NCBI GenBank assembly: GCA_951406725.2
Contig: OX597816.1
Location: 175,584,001 to 175,648,000, forward strand
DNA: 64,000 nucleotides
Origin: Octopus vulgaris
Taxonomy: Eukaryota
Reading direction: 5' to 3'
Shown here: positions 1 to 53,154 of the stretch, one piece after another
Layout of the letters: each line of letters begins with the position of its first letter
Numbering within the stretch: position 1 is the stretch's first letter
Translations under genes and position numbers: made by a program
The notes under the pieces: generated by a model
Seen by the model: only the letters and a program-made list of their open reading frames with translations
Database searches by the model: none
What the model was told of the DNA's origin: nothing

Positions 1-1899
1 TAAACGTGTGCCATGCCAAGCAGGTCGATCCATGACAATCTCCATCTTATACACTACTCCTTAGAGAGGGTGAGGAAACTTTGTGGTGCAGGGAGGGCAC
101 TGGTACATTTAGATCAGTCTAAAGCATTTGATAGGGTTGACCATCGGTACATGGCGGCGGTCCTCGAGAAGGCTGGCTTAAGCCCGACCCCCCGTGGTTG
201 GATTTCTGTGCTGTACAGCGATATTGAGTCTGTCGCGAAAGTGAATGGTTTCTTTTCAAAGCCATTCAAGACCGAACAATCAGTGCGTCAGGGGTGTTCT
301 CTGTCTCTGCTTTTGTATGTACTGGCTCTTGAGCCATTGCTGCGGAAGTTGGAGGCACTAGGGGGCACGCCACATGATCTATGGTGTGGAAGAGGAGCTA
401 CAGCATACGCGAATGACATCTCCATCATCACGGCAGATGAAGGCCAGCTTCCAGTGGTGGAAAAGGCCATTAAAAGTTACAAGGCGGTGGCAGTACTGTG
501 CAATAACGTCGTGGGGCGTTGGACGGGAGGTCCTGTTAAGCTGCTCGGAGTCTGGTTCGGGTCCAGACCTCCAGATAGAGAAAGATTGGAGTGAGGGGGC
601 CAGCAAGGTGACTGCTCTAACCCAGACTTGGTGTGGGCGGGCGTTATCCTTGCTAGGGAGGGCGGAGGTGGTGCAGACGTTTATAGCATTGGTTATCACC
701 TACCGTCTGACCATGGTACCTTGCTCTGGTTTGTGGCTGAACAAGTTGGAGAGAATCCTTTTCTGCTTTTAGTGGAAGCGAGGAAAGCCACTCGTGAAGC
801 GCTCTGTCTGCTGCCAGAAACCGCTAAATGGCGGGTTAGGGATGCCTTGGCTGAAGATGCGAAAATTCGTGTTAAGGTTGAGGCACCTCTGGCTTTACCT
901 GGATGGAGAGCAGGTGTGGTCACCGCACTTCCGGTTCTATCTCCCACAGTTAATGTCTTTAACAGACGTTGGTGCGTGGATCAAGAAGAGACCTAGGCTG
1001 GGGGACTGGCAATTGGAGTGCTGTCAGGCACTTCAGCTACTCTCTCGGATGGGTAATGCCGGCAGCAGGAGTTCCACCATGGATTTTTATAGCGGGTTAG
1101 TAGAGACCAAGTCCAAAGACGCCTTGGGGGAGACCCTGGGCTACGATGAAAATCAGTTAATCAACCTGTTCAGGAGAACATATGAGCCGGAGTAACTGGA
1201 TAATTACCAGAAATCCCTGGCTTGACAGTGCTTCCGTACAGCATCACCGGTTCATGACAAGCTTTCAAGGCACGGAAGTGCCGTCTTGCCGACATGCCTG
1301 AGATGTGGGCAGGATAGGGAGTGTCCGGAATTATCAGGACCGATAGCTTTCGTCAAACAACTGATGTCAGTGATGGGAAGAGGACAGCTACCAGCTGAGT
1401 CTATCATCAAGATCGTGCCACCCCCTTCCCTTAGCAGGTAAAGGAAGGCCTGTTTTTTCTGCGTAGTAGCCATACTGAAAGAAACAGTATGGAAGACGCG
1501 TGTGAAAGGTATAATGACAGGTACCTTTGTCACTGGTCAGGGGTCGGTCAACTTCTTTGGTTATCACCTCAATAGTAAGGTCAGGCTGGAGAAGAGGTGT
1601 CTGACACGGGATATGTTTGTTAAATGATGGAAACCTATGGAAAGTAAGTTAGGTGTGATTGGCACCAAGTAAGTGCATTCAAGATGAAAAGTAAAGGTTC
1701 TACCTAGGTGGCCGGAAGCCTTTAGGAAATACATTGCAAATCACAATGAACATAAAATTTTTTTTTATTTTAAAACTATATATATTTTTTTATGATTCAC
1801 CTATCATCCGAGACTATTTTTTAATCGATTAGCAGCTACTTCACCTTTTTATGTTTGTTTGTCTTTGTTTTTCCCCTCTGGCAAATTTGATGAAATAAA
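1..1899 (+). mobile_element. Tx1/L1-clade LINE, decayed ORF2 (RT and C-terminus) plus 3' UTR; runs off the window start
   Basis: Frameshifted ORFs 13-594, 374-772, 794-1195 contain RT motifs RSIHDNL, LDQSKAFDRVDH, SVRQGCSLSLLLYVLALEPLL, AYAND, LSLLGRAEV and NGGLGMP, typical of Tx1-type ORF2. AATAAA at ~1895. Confidence 0.9.
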
Positions 1900-9000: not shown

Positions 9001-9463
9001 AACAATTCCAGTATAGAGTACAAGGCAATAAATTTATTTGAGAATGGCTTGAGCTTGTATTTTTCTCAAGGATCTTAGAAGTGTAAATAAAATAGTTTCA
9101 TGCTCTATAACTTCTACACAATAATCATTAAACTAATTTTATATAATAAAAGAGAAGTGGATCTTCATCTGTCTGTCAGTCACAATGTCTATTATAGAGA
9201 GGAAAAAAGAGGAGGAGTCAAAATATACATCACAATGTATTTTTAGAAGAGGAAGAGAAACTGTTGTTGTTCAGAGAGAAATAGTGTGAGTGAGAGAGGG
9301 TGTGTGAAAGATAGATAGATAGATAGGTAGTGTTGTCACAATAGTAATTTACATGTTTTGATTTAAAAAGCAGGAATTTTAAGTGCAAGTCTGTCAACAC
9401 AGCACACTTCAAAAAAGACTATATGTGTACATATATATAGTTTTGAAACTAGCAAAATGGATA

Positions 9464-9547: not shown

Positions 9548-10117
9548 ATAAAGATCATAAAAATATGTTGAATAAAGTTGTAAAATAAGAGGAAATAAAT
9601 TTTGAGGATGAACAAGACTCCATGTTCTCTATTGTTATAATTATTGCTAATATATACTCCAGGTAATATTACCATCCAGTGAAGCAAACACAGAATTACC
9701 CATCAGAGGCATTTACAGAGTGACTGACAACTAATAGTAGTGATAGATGCTAAATACTGATTGATGCGATTAGCCATAACTGGGAGCATAACTGAGAGCC
9801 ACCATAGTATCTGCCTGGATAATATATCCTTTCAAACTCACATTCATATATATACATATATAGATATAGTTTTTTTGTTGTTGTTGTTTGTGTTTGTGTA
9901 TTTCTGTGTCTTTCAACATATAGGCAAATACAACAAAGACTTTAAAAAAACTTTCACTTTGAATAGAAGAAAGAGAGGAAAAAAAGTTGTTGAGTGAGAA
10001 ATGCAGTGAGAGAGATAGAGAGTGTGTGTGTACGTCATCTTAATACCTAACAACTTTTGACTAAAAACGTGATAACTTTAAGTGCAAGTCAGTCAACACA
10101 GTGAAACACATCAAAAA

Positions 10118-10121
<4 letters not shown>

Positions 10122-10204
<83 letters not shown>

Positions 10205-10212
10205 TATATATA

Positions 10213-10274
<62 letters not shown>

Positions 10275-10375
10275 CTATATATATATATATTTATATATAC
10301 TATATATATATATATATTTATATACTATATTTATATACTATATATATATTTATATACTATATATATATATATATC
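10122..10375. repeat. (TA)n microsatellite with TAC/TTT variants
   Basis: Seen directly; a second tract lies at ~10660-10733. Confidence 0.97.
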
Positions 10376-10396
10376 GCATCGAAGACCGGTGATTGC

Positions 10397-10442
10397 CATG
10401 CACTGACGATGGGTAAATACCCAGAAACTCGGGTCCATGCGT
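10397..10442 (+). ncRNA. Minimal type I hammerhead ribozyme-like motif HHR2
   Basis: CTGACGA 10403-10409; stem II TGGGT-AAAT-ACCCA; GAAA 10424-10427; C-TCGG-G; GTC triplet. Stem I (ATGCA/TGCGT or CATG/CATG) is offset by 2 nt. Confidence 0.65.
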
Positions 10443-10665
10443 ATCATGTCAGGTCGATGATGGGAAGGATGGCTTCCCTTTGCAGATACGGATGGGGCAC
10501 AGAAAGTGTGTCAATAGCCAGCTGGAGAAGATGTTCTCCTGGGGCTACAAGCTACAGTAGCATCCACCCTTAGTGGATAACCACATTGAAGTGGCAAATA
10601 TACTTCACGTTGTCATGCAGCTACTGTCTATTACCTCATTCAGAGATTTATTATTGCTTATATAT

Positions 10666-10736
<71 letters not shown>

Positions 10737-10774
10737 CTGTGGCCATTTCATACGTGATGTGTGTTTCTTTATTT

Positions 10775-10856
10775 TTCCCCTGATGAAGGAGTAATTATCG
10801 TGATGCACCCTCATGCATTAAATACGGTGATGAACCCCTGAAATGGCCACAGGGAA
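10775..10856 (+). ncRNA. Type I hammerhead ribozyme-like motif HHR3 (decayed)
   Basis: Stem I TTCCC/GGGAA; CTGATGA 10780-10786; long stem II (AGG/CCT, ATTATCGT/ACGGTGAT, ATGCA/TGCAT); GAAA 10840-10843; palindromic stem III TGGCCA; triplet mutated to ACA. Confidence 0.6.
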
Positions 10857-11407
10857 TGTAAATATGGTTTCTTCCTTTTTTTTGCTTGGACACTGGCTTT
10901 TAAAAATAGGTTTTCCCTTATCTTGAAAAGTAATTTTTAATTGAAAAAATTTCTAAATGATGAACTTTTATCTTACCTTATATATTATTTATTTATATGT
11001 TTCCTATATATATGTATTTTTTATATCTTTTTATATATTTATATATTTCTTTATATTTTTATATATTTATTATTCTAGATGTTATAATGTTAAAATATAT
11101 TTTTTTTTAGTTGCTAACGTATTAATCATTAATTTTTAATCGCGATAGACTGTATTCAAACATTTTTCTTATATGCTTGTATTGATGAGTTGTGTTTCAT
11201 CTTCCGTGATTTTATACATGCATATTCTATGTGAAAGAAAAAGCATTATGTGGTCAAATGTTATGAGATATGAAATGACCTTATATTTGTTTGTTCTGCA
11301 ACCATGGTTTAATATATTTGTCTCATTCAATTGAGCACTTCTATAGCAGTCCTATTAAACATTTTGTTCCTGATAAGAAACAATCACTTTATTATTGATA
11401 TTTATAC

Positions 11408-11438
<31 letters not shown>

Positions 11439-12965
11439 CATATATAGCAATTTTATTTGGTTGTTTGTTTGTATGTTTATGTCCATGTGTGTTTCTGTGT
11501 CTTTCAACTTATAGACAACACAGAGTTTAAAAGAAGGACTTTCACTTTGAATAATTTATGAAAGTATGTGCATGATTAATAAATATTTTTACTGGCAGCA
11601 TAAGAACAGGCAACAACCTAGTTACAATAATAATAATGATTACTAACATTAGCATAAGGCTACACACAGGTTTTGGGAGAGAGTATATATAATTAAATCA
11701 ACCCAAGGACTTAACTGTGCTTTACTGACTTTAGAAGGTTGAAAAGCAAAGTTGACCAGGATAGAATTTGAATTTGGAATGTAAAGGACCATTACTAAAT
11801 ATGGTACTACAGGAAAATATGAGTCCCATTAATTTACTTTCATTAACATTAGCAAAGATATAACTGCTCTTTAAACACTTTCATTCTTTCAATACTGACA
11901 TGTATACAGACAGTGGTGAATTGTTTGGTCAAACTGCTGGTGATGCATTTCACAACATTTTAAAACCTTTTTAAATTCCTAAATAGTATCCAACTCCATA
12001 ACTAATAGTTATTTAATTCATGATAGAAATATTTGCATTCATGGTTATGCTTTTAATATCCTTCCACAGTTAAGTTTGATGACAATTAAATGATAAGACC
12101 TGTGTTTGCCAGTAGTGCCCTAAATACTGAAGTATTTTGTAAGATGCTTTTAATATTGGTTTCTAACATTGATACAAAGTCAGAAATTTCAGGAGAGACA
12201 ATTCTAATAATAACAACAAAAACATTGCTAATGATGTCTATTGTAAAATCATTTCCAAATCAACTAATTATGAACAACACTGAGTCTAGTGACATGCCAC
12301 TGACAATAAACATATGAAATTGAAGGAATTCAGTAAAATGAAATAAGAAACACAAGACAAAAATGCAAATAAAATTTGAAACAAAAAAAAACAAAACAGA
12401 ATACTTAAAATTAGGTATATTTTTATCATTTTAGAAATTTTGTAAATGCATTCATTAAAATATAACATGCTGAATAAATACCTAAGATCAAGGCTGTAGT
12501 GGAAAAGAGAAGGAAAAGCAAAAAATAGAGAACATATTAACCACGTGTTCATTTCTGGTTCATGCAATTTAAGGGTAAGAAAACGAAAGGTAAACTGACA
12601 AGAATTTAGCTTTGAAAATGATTGGGGATAATAAAAGGTGACAAAAACACCACTCATTTGAAGGGAACATCTAAAAATTTTGTGTAACCCTTATGGAGTT
12701 TTTGGGACATCATACTATTGAATGAGTTTGAAAATCACAAGAATAAGATATGAGTCAAATGTAATTGCTCAGGCAGGAATTGAATTGTATCAACTTGTAT
12801 TACATTGAAGAATATACATTATCACTCACTCAACAGAACTATAGAGAATTATGACTTATCGATTAATGCTAAGGATAGTCTCCAGTATCGGTAGAACTAT
12901 TCCAGTATAGTGTTTGTTTATTGAGGCAATGCTTAACAGTTGGATGCTCTTTCTGACATTACACC

Positions 12966-13698: not shown

Positions 13699-13932
13699 CT
13701 ACCAAATTAGAATTTTTTAAAAGACATTATAACAATTGCAACAAGAGTAATGTGTGTGTATATATATATATATATATAGTTCAGGTAACATTCTGTTTAA
13801 TAGCATAATGTAATAGGTATATACAATAAGTGATCAAGCTGACTTACCACCTAAAACTCTAGATTAAACTGTAACTAAAACAAGAAGCAGTGATTTTATA
13901 GCTGCTTGGAGGGAAGGTGGGGGGTGGGTGGG

Positions 13933-14362
13933 TATGTATGTATGTGTGTATGTGTGTGTGTATGTATGTATGTATGTATGTATGTATGTATGTATGTATG
14001 TATGTATGTATGTATGTATGTGTGTGTATGTGTATGTATGTATGTATGTGTGTATGTATGTATGTATATATGTGTGTATGTATGTATGTATGTATGTATG
14101 TATGTGTGTATGTATGTATGTATGTATGTGTGTATGTGTGTATGTATGTATGTATGTATGTATGTGTGTATGTATGTATGTATGTATGTATGTATGTGTG
14201 TATGTGTGTATGTATGTATGTATGTATGTGTGTATGTATGTATGTATGTGTGTATATATGTATGTATGTATGTATGTATGTGTGTATGTATGTATGTATG
14301 TGTGTATGTGTGTGTGTATGTATGTATGTATATATGTATGTATGTATGTGTATGTATGTATG

Positions 14363-14395
<33 letters not shown>

Positions 14396-14438
14396 GTGTA
14401 TGTATGTATGTATGTATGTGTGTGTGTATGTATGTATG

Positions 14439-14472
<34 letters not shown>

Positions 14473-14536
14473 TGTAGGTATGTATGTATGTATGTATGTA
14501 TGTATGTATGTATGTGTGTATGTAAGTATGTATGTA

Positions 14537-14570
<34 letters not shown>

Positions 14571-14728
14571 GGTATGTATGTATGTATGTATGTATGTATG
14601 TATGTATGTATGTATGTATGTATGTATGTATGTATGTATGTATGTATGTGTGTGTGTATGTATGTATGTATGTATGTATGTATGTGTGTATGTAAGTATG
14701 TATGTATGTGTGTGTGTATGTATGTATG

Positions 14729-14762
<34 letters not shown>

Positions 14763-14860
14763 GGTATGTATGTATGTATGTGTGTGTGTATGTATGTATG
14801 TATGTATGTATGTATGTGTGTATGTAAGTATGTATGTATGTGTGTGTGTATGTATGTATG

Positions 14861-14892
<32 letters not shown>

Positions 14893-14942
14893 TGTGTGTA
14901 TGTATGTATGTATGTATGTATGTGTGTGTGTATGTATGTATG

Positions 14943-14976
<34 letters not shown>

Positions 14977-15070
14977 TGTATGTATGTAGGTATGTATGTA
15001 TGTATGTGTGTGTGTATGTATGTATGTATGTATGTAAGTATGTATGTATGTGTGTGTGTATGTATGTATG

Positions 15071-15104
<34 letters not shown>

Positions 15105-15346
15105 TGTATGTGTGTGTGTATGTATGTATGTATGTATGTATGTATGTATGTGTGTATGTATGTATGTATGTATGTATGTGTGTATGTATGTATGTATGTA
15201 TGTGTGTATGTGTGTATGTATGTATGTATGTATGTATGTATGTATGTGTGTATGTATGTATGTATGTGTGTATATATGTATGTATGTATGTATGTATGTG
15301 TGTATGTATGTATGTATGTGTGTATGTGTGTGTGTATGTATGTATG

Positions 15347-15379
<33 letters not shown>

Positions 15380-15398
15380 GTGTGTGTATGTATGTATG

Positions 15399-15431
<33 letters not shown>

Positions 15432-15590
15432 GTGTATGTATGTATGTATGTATGTATGTATGTATGTATGTATGTATGTGTGTATGTATGTATGTATGTA
15501 TGTGTGTGTGTGTGTATGTGTGTATGTATGTATGTATGTATGTAGGTATGTATGTATGTATGTATGTATGTGTGTGTGTATGTATGTATG

Positions 15591-15624
<34 letters not shown>

Positions 15625-15640
15625 TGTATGTATGTATGTA

Positions 15641-15671
<31 letters not shown>

Positions 15672-15786
15672 ATGTGTGTATGTATGTATGTATGTATGTA
15701 TGTATGTGTGTATGTATGTATGTATGTGTGTATGTGTGTATGTATGTATGTATGTATGTATGTATGTATGTGTGTATGTATGTGTG

Positions 15787-15819
<33 letters not shown>

Positions 15820-15914
15820 GTGTGTGTATGTATGTATGTGTGTATGTGTGTGTGTATGTATGTATGTATATATGTATGTATGTATGTATGTATGTGTGTG
15901 TGTATGTATGTATG

Positions 15915-15947
<33 letters not shown>

Positions 15948-16214
15948 GTGTATGTATGTATGTATGTATGTATGTATGTGTGTATGTATGTATGTACGTA
16001 TGTATGTATGTATGTATGTGTGTATGTAAGTATGTATGTATGTATGTATGTGTGTATGTGTGTATGTATGTATGTATGTATGTATGTATGTGTGTATGTA
16101 TGTATGTATGTGTGTATATATGTATGTATGTATGTATGTATGTGTGTATGTATGTATGTATGTGTGTATGTGTGTGTGTATGTATGTATGTATATATGTG
16201 TGTATGTATGTATG

Positions 16215-16248
<34 letters not shown>

Positions 16249-16448
16249 TGTATGTGTGTATGTATGTATGTATGTATGTATGTATGTATGTATGTATGTA
16301 TGTATGTGTGTATGTGTGTGTGTGTATGTATGTATGTATGTATGTATGTGTGTATGTATGTATGTATGTATGTATGTATGTGTGTATGTATGTATGTATG
16401 TATGTATGTGTGTATGTGTGTATGTATGTATGTGTGTATGTATGTGTG

Positions 16449-16481
<33 letters not shown>

Positions 16482-16600
16482 GTGTGTGTATGTATGTATG
16501 TGTGTATGTGTGTGTATGTATGTATGTATATATGTATGTATGTATGTATGTATGTGTGTGTGTATGTATGTATGTATATATGTATGTATGTATGTATGTA

Positions 16601-16631
<31 letters not shown>

Positions 16632-17762
16632 ATGTGTGTATGTATGTATGTACGTATGTATGTATGTATGTATGTGTGTATGTAAGTATGTATGTATGTA
16701 TGTGTGTATGTGTGTATGTATGTATGTATGTATGTATGTATGTATGTATGTGTGTGTGTATGTATGTATGTATGTATGTATGTATGTGTGTATGTGTGTA
16801 TGTATGTGTGTATGTGTGTATGTATGTGTGTATGTATGTGTGTATGTATGTATGTATGTGTGTATGTATGTATGTATGTGTGTATGTATGTATGTATGTA
16901 TGTGTGTATGTATGTATGTATGTATGTGTGTATGTATGTATGTATGTGTGTATGTATGTATGTATGTATGTGTGTATGTATGTGTGTATGTATGTATGTA
17001 TGTATGTATGTATGTATGTGTGTATGTATGTATGTATGTATGTATGTATGTATGTATGTATGTATGTGTGTATGTATGTATGTATGTATGTATGTATGTA
17101 TTTATGTATGTATGTATGTATGTATGTATGTATGTGTATGTATGTATGTATGTATGTATGTATGTATGTATGTATGTGTGTATGTATGTATGTATGTATT
17201 TATGTATGTATGTATGTATGTATGTATGTATGTATGTATGTATGTATGTATGTATGTGTGTATGTATTTATGTATGTATGTATGTATGTATGTATGTGTG
17301 TGTGTATGTATGTATGTATGTATGTATGTATGTATGTATGTGTGTATGTATTTATGTATGTATGTATTTATGTATGTATGTACGTATGTATGTATGTATG
17401 TGTGTATGTATGTGTGTATGTATGTATGTATGTATGTATGTATGCATGTACGTATGTATGTATGTATGTATGTATGTATGCATGTACGTATGTGTGTATG
17501 TATGTATGTATGTGTGTATGTATGTATGTATGTAAGTATGTATGTGTGTATGTATGTATGTATGTATGTATGTATGTATGTGTGTATGTATGTATGTATG
17601 TATGTATGTGTGTATGTATGTATGTATGTATGTATGTATGTATGTGTGTATGTATGTGTGTATGTGGGTATGTATGTGTGTATGTATGTATGTATGTGTG
17701 TATGTATGTGTGTATGTATGTGTGTATGTATGTATGTATGTATGTATGTATGTATGTATGTA
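13933..17762. repeat. ~3.8-kb (TATG)n/(TG)n compound microsatellite
   Basis: Seen directly; source of all the MYVC-repeat ORFs. Confidence 0.99.
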
Positions 17763-18169
17763 TTTGTCTAACTCATGCTAGCATGGAAAACAGACATTAA
17801 ATGATGATGATGAAAATGACATATATATCATCATCATCATTCTCATCATCAATTTAACGACCACTTTCCCATGCTCACATGGGTTGGATGGAATTTGTTG
17901 AGGTGAATTTTTCTACAGCCAGATGCCCTTCCTGTTGTCAACCCTCACCTGCTTCCCAAAAAAGGTAATATTTCTCCATAACTAGACAAGTTTTCAAGGA
18001 AGATTGACAATGAAGGACACTGCTTCAACTATTATTACTTAATATTCTAAAGCAACACATACTAAAATCAATCTCAACACATAATAACAACAATAAATAA
18101 TATATTTAACCATAATATCATTACAAGCAATAATATAAATAAACATCATTAAATATAAATAATATTAAA

Positions 18170-46879: not shown

Positions 46880-48250
46880 AGTTACTTCTGCCTAAAGTGC
46901 CTGCTTTACCTTTGTAGCAGTTGACTATGGAACTGCTACACTAGTTGTTGGGTATGACCCCTTCCCTTCCTGGACAACCTGATTAAATATAGGGGTGACT
47001 AGGTTGTAGTCCACTCTACCAGATATTTTAAACATTTCAGTAGTAATTCCTGATGGACCAGGAGCAGTACCTCCATTGGGTCTATATTAGGAAGACTCTC
47101 TTTTTCCCATGCATTCTCCACAGCCTTTCACTGCTGCACTACCATGCCTTTTTTGTTTCAGAATCACTAAGAGAATGTGTACCATCATCCATTTGTATTC
47201 AGTTCTGTTATACCGTTCTGTAATCCATAACATCTCATACTTCTGGGTTTCATACTGTAGATTATTGGAAAACCTCTTTCTTTCCATTTCTCTCCCTACT
47301 GCAAGGTCCTAGCTTCTCTTCTAACCACGAGTATATTTCTTCTAATCCATCCAAACCAGCCTCGTCTCTTTTACTGCTCTCTCTACTTCACTGTTCCACC
47401 ACCACATCACTGATAGCCTGGCTGAAACTATGGACCTGCTACTGATTTGATTTGTTACTTTCATTAGGTTGCTACAAAAGAACTTGTCTCAAAGGAAATT
47501 CTCTTCCATGTTATAAATCTCTAGCTTCTTGTTCAATGTTTTGGTTACTATTTCTCTAAATTCCTGATTGTTCATTGAATCTGTAAGCTTCCATAATTTT
47601 CTTTTCCAGATTGGTTTTGCAACTCTGAGTCCTTTTAGCTTTAAGTCTGACCTATGTTGGGTTGTACATTCCTCACCTGAGAAGGACTTTGCATTCCAAA
47701 GCATTTGTCTATCCTATTTTCTAATGAGAATGCAGTAAATCTAGCTTGCATGCCCACTTGACTGATGGGTGATCAGGTGACTGACTGGTTTCCTGAAGTC
47801 AGTGATGCAGATCATCAGATTATTTGCATCACAGAACTTCAAGAGCCATATTGTCTCCTCATTTCTAGGATCAAAACTATATCTTTAATGTACACTATGG
47901 AATCTATTGGGTTGCTGCCCAACATGTCTGCTGAAGTCACCAACCACAAAGATAATGCCACTGTTACTCACCATTGCGATCATCTGCAAAAGGAGCTCAC
48001 AAAATCAATCCTTTGGTCATCTACCAATCTTGATTGAGGAGTAAATACAGAAATAAACGTTGCTGTTGTATTTTCCAAGATTGGTCCAAGCTTAGTTACC
48101 CTGTCACACACTCTGACTACCTTGATCATCTTCTCTATCCATTTCTCTGCTGAAAGTATGCCTACATCTCCCACACCATCTATTGCCCACCCAGAAAAAT
48201 TTATATCTCTGTTCCTTACCCATGAGACCATAATACAGAACTTATAATGC
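46880..48250 (-). mobile_element. RTE LINE endonuclease/linker remnant
   Basis: Minus strand: FISVFTPQSRLVDDQRIDF, KPVSHLIT, KSFSGEECTTQHR, WKL, WWNSEVERAVKEK, APGPSGITTEM. Confidence 0.8.
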
Positions 48251-52757: not shown

Positions 52758-53154
52758 CTAGTAATATTGCCCGGCGTTGCTCGGGTTTGTAAGGGAAATA
52801 ACTATATAAGCATATTTAGAGATGTAAAGTATAATAGCCATCTCAATATGGCTAACCACAAAGGAGGGGGTGTTACTGTAGCTTTTTACGTTCTGAGATT
52901 TAATAATAAATTTTTAGAGAGTTACTTCCCTTATATATGCCAAAAATGCATTAAAAATGTGAAAAATTGATGGTAAATTTTTTAAAAATCGTAGACTCAT
53001 CGTAGATGCGTGCTAATACCCAGAAGGGCTTGATATGAATCACGACTATAAGATACCCGGTTTTGGTTAAACTGCACCGCAAAATGTGGGAGTAGTTAGG
53101 AATCTAAATCGTAGGAGACAGACAGACACACAACCTCTCTTTTATATATAAAGA
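52758..53154 (-). mobile_element. Non-autonomous Helitron
   Basis: 5' TCTTTATATATAAAAG; 3' hairpin CCCGAGCAACGCCGGG followed by CTAG; A|T site. Confidence 0.9.

What the first reader, a model, noticed from the sequence alone, without database searches (positions are those of the whole stretch)
10376..10659. ~285-nt multi-hairpin, retrozyme-like RNA cassette sandwiched between two (TA)n arrays
Seen: a GC-balanced, CpG-retaining island in AT-rich DNA. After the intact hammerhead core come consecutive hairpins: GGGAAG-gatgg-CTTCCC, GGCACA-gaaag-TGTGTC, GGAGAA-gatg-TTCTCC, ATCCAC-cctta-GTGGAT and TGAAGT-ggcaaatat-ACTTCA. It has no credible ORF. Known: animal non-LTR retrozymes are a few hundred nt, highly structured and produce circular RNAs. 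Inference: a young non-autonomous ribozyme retroelement. Caveat: stem I is offset by 2 nt in this copy.
Basis: partly seen in the sequence, partly recalled or inferred. Interest (0 to 1): 0.75.

Follow-up and report, generated by a model that had tools for sequence, protein, structure and literature searches.

The report
Decayed copy of Penelope-moved retrozyme
This is a shortened, mutation-damaged copy of a 357-base non-coding repeat with hundreds of copies that carries a predicted self-cutting RNA and was likely pasted into TA repeats by Penelope-type retrotransposons: a new family of a known kind.

Summary
The cassette is real but incomplete. Window 10374-10659 is positions 73-357 of a 357-nt unit (family A) with hundreds of dispersed copies (222 exact ribozyme-core motifs, control 0). 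The family carries a canonical type I hammerhead. Its helices and three of the five listed hairpins hold against an older subfamily (73% identical), two of them with compensatory changes. In this copy CpG decay has broken helix I, so it is predicted inactive; copies lie about 5% from consensus. Insertions show a Penelope footprint: partial tandems, 5' truncation, two fixed 3' ends 44-49 nt apart, microsatellite flanks, and inverted arms that start at the other fixed end in 20 of 21 cases. The older subfamily has an array with three full units. No coding parent was found; Neptune-type and Hydra-type Penelope elements with long open frames are present, and a Hydra-type end lies right beside this copy. 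RNA reads of a related species show only read-through; circles are untested. Verdict: new member of the non-LTR retrozymes. The scan noted other retrozyme families with this footprint elsewhere in this genome, but not this sequence.

The parts
10122..10374 (.). (TA)n-rich array; inferred target microsatellite on the 5' side
10374..10659 (+). Family A copy, unit positions 73-357 of 357; 5'-truncated, single-armed, 93% identical to the subfamily A1 consensus
10377..10462 (+). Extended helix I domain enclosing the hammerhead (unit 76-161); distal helices covary between subfamilies
10397..10441 (+). Type I hammerhead: helix I strands 10397-10402 and 10436-10441 (3 of 6 pairs left here), core 10403-10409, helix II 10410-10423, GAAA 10424-10427, palindromic helix III 10427-10434, predicted cut after C10435
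   Evidence: a relative (L194) matches Rfam Hammerhead_1 at E 0.0042, below the gathering score
10462..10478 (+). Hairpin 1; 5 bp conserved in both subfamilies with one compensatory change
10496..10512 (+). Hairpin 2; conserved, G-U to A-U change between subfamilies
10515..10547 (+). Two-tier hairpin holding hairpin 3 (10524-10539); two compensatory pairs
10554..10627 (+). Conserved stem (unit 253-260 with 319-326) enclosing hairpin 4, a conserved hairpin partly broken in this copy, and 3' end site S1 (10609/10610)
10610..10659 (+). 'Tail' between the two fixed 3' ends, S1 (unit 308/309) and S2 (unit 352/353 and 357); this copy ends at S2
10660..10734 (.). (TA)n/(CA)n array; inferred target microsatellite on the 3' side, shared with the next insertion
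10736..11400 (+). Family B: separate, 5'-truncated 3' end (pseudo-LTR) of a coding Hydra-type Penelope-like element, with a minimal hammerhead at about 10776-10860 and a short inverted 5' piece; a candidate partner, not part of family A

Best explanation
It is a 5'-truncated, CpG-decayed copy of a dispersed 357-nt non-coding tandem unit with a predicted type I hammerhead (a non-LTR retrozyme family), likely pasted into a TA microsatellite by a Penelope-like retrotransposon. Shown: the unit, the copy structure, the conserved fold, the two fixed 3' ends and the microsatellite flanks. Inferred mechanism: tandem master copies were transcribed; neighbouring hammerheads cut the RNA, likely as dimers through the palindromic helix III, giving unit-length RNA that would circularise or stay multimeric; a Penelope RT/GIY-YIG protein would bind the structured 3' domain, nick TA-rich DNA on one or both strands and start reverse transcription internally at S1 and S2, usually stopping early. 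This copy started at S2 and stopped at unit 73-75, where many copies stop (possibly a transcription start). It has since lost helix I and is predicted inert. The likeliest partner is the Hydra-type family that ends in the same short motif; that link is weak.
For: Family: 40 scored places at 89-100% over most of the 284 nt, including the window itself; 222 exact core 17-mers and 603 exact mid-unit 19-mers, controls 0. Unit and tandems: head-to-tail junctions in 43 of 102 distinct insertions; three consecutive full units plus partials in an older-subfamily array. Structure under selection: 91.4% of cells paired over 82 pairs in 26 sequences, 15 pairs with changes on both sides, 85 such cells against 33 in shuffles, slid controls 36-46% paired. 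Helix I is 6 bp, helix II 4 bp, helix III 2 bp with a palindromic loop that covaries, matching the canonical description in PMC4209133. Penelope footprint: 92 of 102 3' ends at S1 (27) or S2 (65); microsatellite within 30 nt in 67 of 102 against 8% background; 31 of 102 carry an adjoining inverted arm, and where both outer ends fall at S1 or S2, 20 of 21 use one of each (p 1e-5). This matches the tail, partial tandems and inverted 5' copies of PMC8557442 and the two internal start sites of PMC11167929. Coding partners exist: 781-aa RT plus GIY-YIG frames and an 806-aa Hydra-type frame. One copy starts exactly at the predicted cut (unit 135, L115) and one ends at 133 (L059).
Against: Cleavage, circles and the enzyme are all untested. 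Only 1 locus has two exact cores one unit apart, and helix I is broken in both; 0 loci have two exact junctions, so no active dimer was seen. In the A1 consensus the predicted ensemble gives helix I in register only about 0.1 and helix II 0, against 0.6-1.0 in A2. A1 copies reach no Rfam hammerhead score. No DNA similarity to a coding parent in 41 Neptune-type and 70 Hydra-type loci, and the 3' alignment with the Hydra-type end is not significant (67 of 500 shuffles score as high). RNA reads of a related species lie on both strands, run on into unlike sequence (87-97%) and show no pile-up at the cut site. The covariation rests mainly on one split between two subfamilies, so cells are not independent events. 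The 3' end tally is biased towards S2 because many loci were best hits of queries that reach unit 357.
Confidence: 0.8

Rival explanations
1. Same element and same Penelope-type enzyme, but with no circular stage: templates were linear read-through transcripts of a master array now lost or not assembled, starting near unit 75-78, and the ribozyme played little part in copying.
For: 5' ends cluster at unit 68-78 in 9 of 19 position-unbiased copies (p 1.4e-4, window chosen after looking), about 25-30 nt after a TATA-like stretch; L081 starts at 78 and runs uncut through two hammerhead sites; one array unit restarts at 79; the anole element inserts from uncleaved RNA in vitro (PMC11167929).
Against: Pairing between unit 56-61 and 180-185 and the 20-38 hairpin covary, so RNA upstream of 75 is under structural selection; copies with two or more junctions exist (L059, L218). 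Both facts also fit long multimers.
Confidence: 0.35
2. Family A is only the terminal repeat (pseudo-LTR) of a coding Penelope-like element whose long copies were not sampled, as family B next door turned out to be.
For: Identical insertion footprint; family B shows that such short copies can be the ends of a coding element; Xenopus retrozymes are homologous to pseudo-LTRs (10.64898/2026.07.22.740005).
Against: In 43 of 102 insertions the sequence upstream of the main unit is the unit's own 3' end, and no shared other sequence was seen in that place in the loci examined; the closed 357-nt unit is kept in two subfamilies 73% alike; the hammerhead is canonical, not the long-helix-II minimal type of the coding families here; no protein similarity.
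Confidence: 0.07
3. The repeat spread at the DNA level as a satellite, or through a LINE enzyme, and the TA arrays grew afterwards.
For: The three full units of the old array share 4 non-majority bases, which local amplification could also give.
Against: Dispersed copies on many chromosomes, 5' truncation, no poly(A) tails seen in the flanks printed, fixed internal 3' ends and the one-of-each rule for inverted arms.
Confidence: 0.04
4. This particular copy is an active ribozyme cassette or a retained regulatory RNA.
For: Core nucleotides and helix II are intact, and helix II has gained a U-A pair.
Against: Helix I is broken next to the core, predicted pairing probability 0; divergence is dominated by CpG decay; it lacks the upstream 72 nt and a tandem partner.
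Confidence: 0.03

Closest known systems
Metazoan non-LTR retrozymes (Cervera and de la Pena 2020, PMC7229834; mussel 350-390 bp, axolotl HHR_Amex2)
   Same: Non-coding unit of 150-450 bp, GC under 50%, canonical type I hammerhead, tandem organisation, structured RNA; a mismatch at the base of helix II (C-A here, U-U in HHR_Amex2).
   Different: Mostly truncated monomers and partial dimers rather than long arrays; no dimer with two intact ribozymes seen; circles and cleavage not shown; no target-site duplication discernible inside the microsatellites.
Vertebrate non-LTR retrozymes as non-autonomous PLE derivatives (Li, Clavereau and Pollet 2026, 10.64898/2026.07.22.740005)
   Same: Co-occurs with coding Penelope-like elements; many dispersed monomers.
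   Different: Here the link is the insertion footprint (tail, inverted arms, TA targets), not sequence homology to a pseudo-LTR, which was not found; an invertebrate, outside that study's main sample.
EN+ Penelope-like elements: Poseidon of anole (PMC11167929); Hydra, Neptune and Naiad clades (PMC8557442)
   Same: Partial tandems, inverted 5' copies, a tail between two internal start sites, AT-rich or (TA)n targets.
   Different: No ORF; tail 44-49 nt rather than 30-40; canonical rather than minimal hammerhead.

Membership tests
Canonical type I hammerhead (family consensus) | Core CUGANGA, GAAA, NUH with helix I 6 bp, helix II 4 bp, helix III 1-2 bp and a palindromic loop | tested here: met
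   40 of 78 gap-free copies pass a simple intactness rule (sample favours intact cores); Rfam Hammerhead_1 E 0.0042 on L194, under the gathering score.
Canonical type I hammerhead (this copy) | Helix I paired in register next to the core | tested here: not met
   3 of 6 pairs; both core-proximal pairs broken.
Canonical type I hammerhead | Self-cleavage, and loop 1-loop 2 tertiary contact | not testable with these tools
   No assay possible; loop 2 differs between subfamilies.
Non-LTR retrozyme | Non-coding unit of 150-450 bp with GC under 50% | tested here: met
   357 nt; this copy 47% GC; longest ATG frame 46 aa; no protein similarity to the local Penelope ORFs.
Non-LTR retrozyme | Head-to-tail tandem copies, from dimers to multimers | tested here: met
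   Partial tandems in 43 of 102 insertions; three full consecutive units at L218 in the older subfamily.
Non-LTR retrozyme, 'active' in the sense of Li et al. 2026 | Two consecutive units, each with a complete hammerhead | tested here: not met
   1 locus with two exact cores, helix I broken in both; array cores decayed. Exact patterns can miss variant or collapsed arrays.
Non-LTR retrozyme | Expressed as monomeric linear and circular RNA | tested here: inconclusive
   Three cDNA runs of a related species show only low read-through on both strands; such libraries are not made to catch small circles.
Non-LTR retrozyme | Target-site duplications, when present, longer than 4 bp | tested here: inconclusive
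   Flanks are microsatellites, which hide duplications.
Penelope-mobilised element | Partial tandems, 5' truncation, inverted 5' copy, tail on one end | tested here: met
Autonomous Penelope-like element | ORF with RT and GIY-YIG between the terminal repeats | tested here: not met
   No ORF joined to family A in the loci examined; the one 2.2-kb-spaced pair (L112) gave no Penelope protein hit.
Derivative of a specific local Penelope family | Sequence homology to its pseudo-LTR | tested here: inconclusive
   None in 41 Neptune-type and 70 Hydra-type loci; other Penelope families in the genome were not sampled.

The most novel reading that the evidence does not exclude
Family A is an old, independently evolving circular-RNA replicon whose whole 357-nt fold has been kept by selection across two subfamilies, and a Hydra-clade Penelope dimer copies it from both strands of one TA cut, one subunit starting at S1 and the other at S2. 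That would tie a canonical retrozyme to a named Penelope clade by a shared 3' end signal rather than by descent from its terminal repeat.
Probability: 0.25. Interest if true: 0.6.

Novelty: new member of a known kind. Interest (0 to 1): 0.35.

Why it matters
The locus itself is an inert relic. The family is useful. The papers read propose Penelope elements as the movers of animal retrozymes from co-occurrence and repeat homology. Here the copies record the enzyme's footprint directly, with two fixed start sites used one per strand, and two subfamilies give a covariation map of what the RNA must keep. That yields a defined substrate and two candidate enzymes for an in vitro test of trans-mobilisation. 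My two searches for a cephalopod retrozyme in the held library (octopus + hammerhead ribozyme; cephalopod + Penelope + ribozyme) listed no paper describing one; repeat databases and subscription journals were not searchable.

Tried and rejected
Rfam scan of the whole window at gathering thresholds: 0 matches; the permissive scan gave only microsatellite-driven hits; an A1 copy gave no hammerhead hit. The loose hammerhead pattern is not above chance in the window (11 matches, shuffles mean 5.5, 8 of 100 reach 11), so the case rests on the family, not on the pattern. Sequencing-run search: no RNA holder listed. Search for a coding parent: none found. Penelope ORF fragments lie within 1.5 kb of several A copies, but they read as separate insertions in shared TA arrays or older decayed copies, not as parents. 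A pair of cores 2.2 kb apart (L112) looked like pseudo-LTR-ORF-pseudo-LTR but holds no Penelope ORF. Hard stop of templates at the ribozyme cut: rejected as a rule, since L116 and L081 cross two cut sites. The first de-duplication (98 insertions) wrongly merged a few loci and was redone (102 of 126 loci). Shared 3' signal between A and the Hydra-type family: a short motif only, alignment not significant. Earlier-findings look-ups by sequence, relatives and nearness returned nothing. Supplements of the bioRxiv preprint were not seen; they list species and families and could bear on novelty.

Full report
1. Observation. The sequence at 10376-10659 is as described: a 47% GC island between TA arrays, with a hammerhead core at 10403-10435 and the five hairpins. 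It folds somewhat better than shuffles (z -2.53; reverse strand -2.14), but the predicted structure does not form the ribozyme. Rfam gives nothing at gathering thresholds, and the loose core pattern alone is not above chance in the window. The case therefore had to come from relatives.

2. The family. The 284 nt match many places in the window's own 2.8-Gb genome (3008 first-look candidates, 40 scored, 89-100%). Exact motif counts are 222 for the ribozyme core and 603 for a mid-unit 19-mer, with reversed-pattern controls at 0; with copies about 5% diverged, true numbers are higher (inference). Flanks show that the unit is 357 nt and closes on itself: upstream of the window's part, other copies have 74 more bases and then the unit's own 3' end. 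The window copy is unit 73-357. Across 80 loci, copies differ from their consensus by 5.3% on average (13.1% at CpG, 4.4% elsewhere); the closest is 2.2% and this copy is 6.3%. A second, older subfamily (A2) has the same length and 73% identity, and the repeat is present in runs of other species labels. The host is probably an octopus; that is recalled from its repeats and genome size and echoed by earlier notes, not shown by a call.

3. The ribozyme. The consensus has a 6-bp helix I continued by an internal loop and further helices, a 4-bp helix II on a C-A mismatch, and a 2-bp helix III with a palindromic loop. This is the canonical metazoan type I form that works as a dimer (PMC4209133, part 1 of 4 read). 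An A2 copy scores against Rfam Hammerhead_1 at E 0.0042, below the gathering score; an A1 copy does not score. 40 of 78 gap-free copies pass a simple intactness rule, in a sample that favours intact cores. The window copy fails: G>A changes at CpG leave 3 of 6 helix I pairs and break the two beside the core; predicted pairing is 0. A caution: for the A1 consensus the predicted ensemble also favours another fold (helix I 0.1, helix II 0), whereas A2 forms helices I and II at 0.6-1.0.

4. Conserved structure. On 26 sequences (10 A1, the window, 13 A2 and 2 intermediates, chosen from the loci held), 82 proposed pairs are 91.4% paired, with 15 pairs changed on both sides; 0 of 500 shuffles reach the 85 compensatory cells, 23 of 500 reach the 15 pairs, and slid controls pair 36-46%. 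The structure was drawn from the two consensus sequences, and most changes are one event between subfamilies, so this is support and not a probability. Hairpins 1 and 3 covary and hairpin 2 is kept; hairpin 4 is kept in a shifted register in A2; hairpin 5 is private to this copy. Covarying pairs link unit 56-61 with 180-185 and hold a hairpin at 20-38, both involving the part this copy lacks. The RNA under selection therefore included the whole unit. A full unit folds at z -5.79.

5. The insertion footprint. Of 102 distinct insertions (from 126 loci), 92 end at one of two sites: S1 (unit 299-312, 27 cases) or S2 (349-358, 65 cases; sampling favours S2). 67 have a microsatellite within 30 nt, against 8% of 30-nt windows here. 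43 cross the head-to-tail junction. 31 carry an adjoining inverted arm; in 21 both outer ends fall at S1 or S2, and 20 of these use one of each (p 1e-5); the other 10 have an arm ending elsewhere. Partial tandems, inverted 5' copies, a tail on one end and TA bias are the Penelope signature (PMC8557442, passages). The anole enzyme cuts both strands in AT-rich DNA and starts at two internal sites that bound the tail (PMC11167929, parts 1-2 of 4). 5' ends cluster at unit 68-78 (9 of 19, p 1.4e-4, window chosen afterwards), where this copy stops, about 25-30 nt after a TATA-like stretch; a transcription start is an inference, and a stall at the base of the long helix is the alternative.

6. Tandems and template. 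Only 1 locus has two exact cores one unit apart, with helix I broken in both, and 0 have two exact junctions. A2 has an array with three full units plus partials, 79-82% alike and sharing 4 non-majority bases. L059 crosses two junctions and ends at unit 133; L115 starts at 135, the predicted cut. Templates longer than a dimer, or circles, therefore existed, but no active master was seen. In RNA reads of a related species (195, 527 and 377 reads in about 6% of three runs), both orientations occur, 87-97% run on into unlike sequence, depth is highest in the 3' half as in DNA, and no ends pile up at the cut. This is host read-through and says little about small circles.

7. The partner. The genome holds Penelope elements with RT, a CX4CX2C linker and GIY-YIG in 781-aa open frames (Neptune or Nematis type). 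It also holds a Hydra-type family (DKT, CxCX5C; 806-aa frame), and the element immediately downstream in the window (10736-11400) is a truncated end of that family. It too has two fixed 3' ends and finishes, like A, in TTTATTATTG before (TA)n, with a similar 5-nt choice of end. The wider alignment is not significant (67 of 500 shuffles), and no homology to A was found in 41 Neptune-type or 70 Hydra-type loci apart from one separate A insertion and one captured 62-nt piece. The partner is therefore unassigned, with Hydra-type a weak favourite.

8. Comparison and verdict. It works like, and by the tested features belongs to, the non-LTR retrozymes (PMC7229834: passages, first third of Results, Discussion), which a 2026 preprint derives from Penelope elements (10.64898/2026.07.22.740005, parts 1-3 of 5). 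It fails that preprint's test for an active element, and cleavage and circles are untested. Two searches found no paper on a cephalopod retrozyme. The scan has noted several other retrozyme families with this footprint in the same genome but not this sequence. New member of a known kind; the locus is a relic; interest 0.35.

Noticed in passing
window 10736-11400 (+): Truncated 3' end of a coding Hydra-type Penelope-like element with a long-helix-II minimal hammerhead; this copy has C in place of the U before the cut site (3 of 19 family copies do). It shares the TA array with the finding.
   Followed up: yes
window 52822-52884 (-); L248:660-720: A 62-nt piece of family A (unit 248-309, about 80%) sits inside the same other repeat at two places; its 3' hairpin followed by CTAG looks like a Helitron end (recalled motif), which suggests a captured fragment.
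   Followed up: partly
L147-L151 (G000 C16, C17, C6, C9): A young Neptune-type Penelope family with many intact 781-aa frames, 95-99% alike; its 3' region has repeated CCAAT and TGACGTC motifs, a TATA box and a splice donor, and my pattern found no hammerhead there.
   Followed up: partly
L152, L157, L120: A second Neptune-type family carries a minimal hammerhead about 500-600 nt after the ORF, with covarying helix II, and a roughly 32-nt tail before (TA)n.
   Followed up: partly
unit 54-61 of family A (absent from the window copy), e.g. L031: An octamer-like motif follows the TATA-like stretch in subfamily A1 but not in A2; snRNA-type promoters are recalled for newt satellite 2, not checked.
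   Followed up: no
window 9287-9439 / 9991-10141 and 9846-9965 / 11430-11553: Old local duplication (73-78% identity) around the insertion site.
   Followed up: no
window 13932-17763: 3.8-kb (GTAT)n array, 961 copies.
   Followed up: no
window 4-591 and 2476-2889: LINE-type fragments: reverse transcriptase (E 2.6e-13) and a weak endonuclease match. No host gene domain was found in the 23 of 43 long frames scanned.
   Followed up: partly
window 47779-47818 (-): Isolated hammerhead-like pattern match with a possible helix I; not above chance on its own.
   Followed up: no
   Followed up: no
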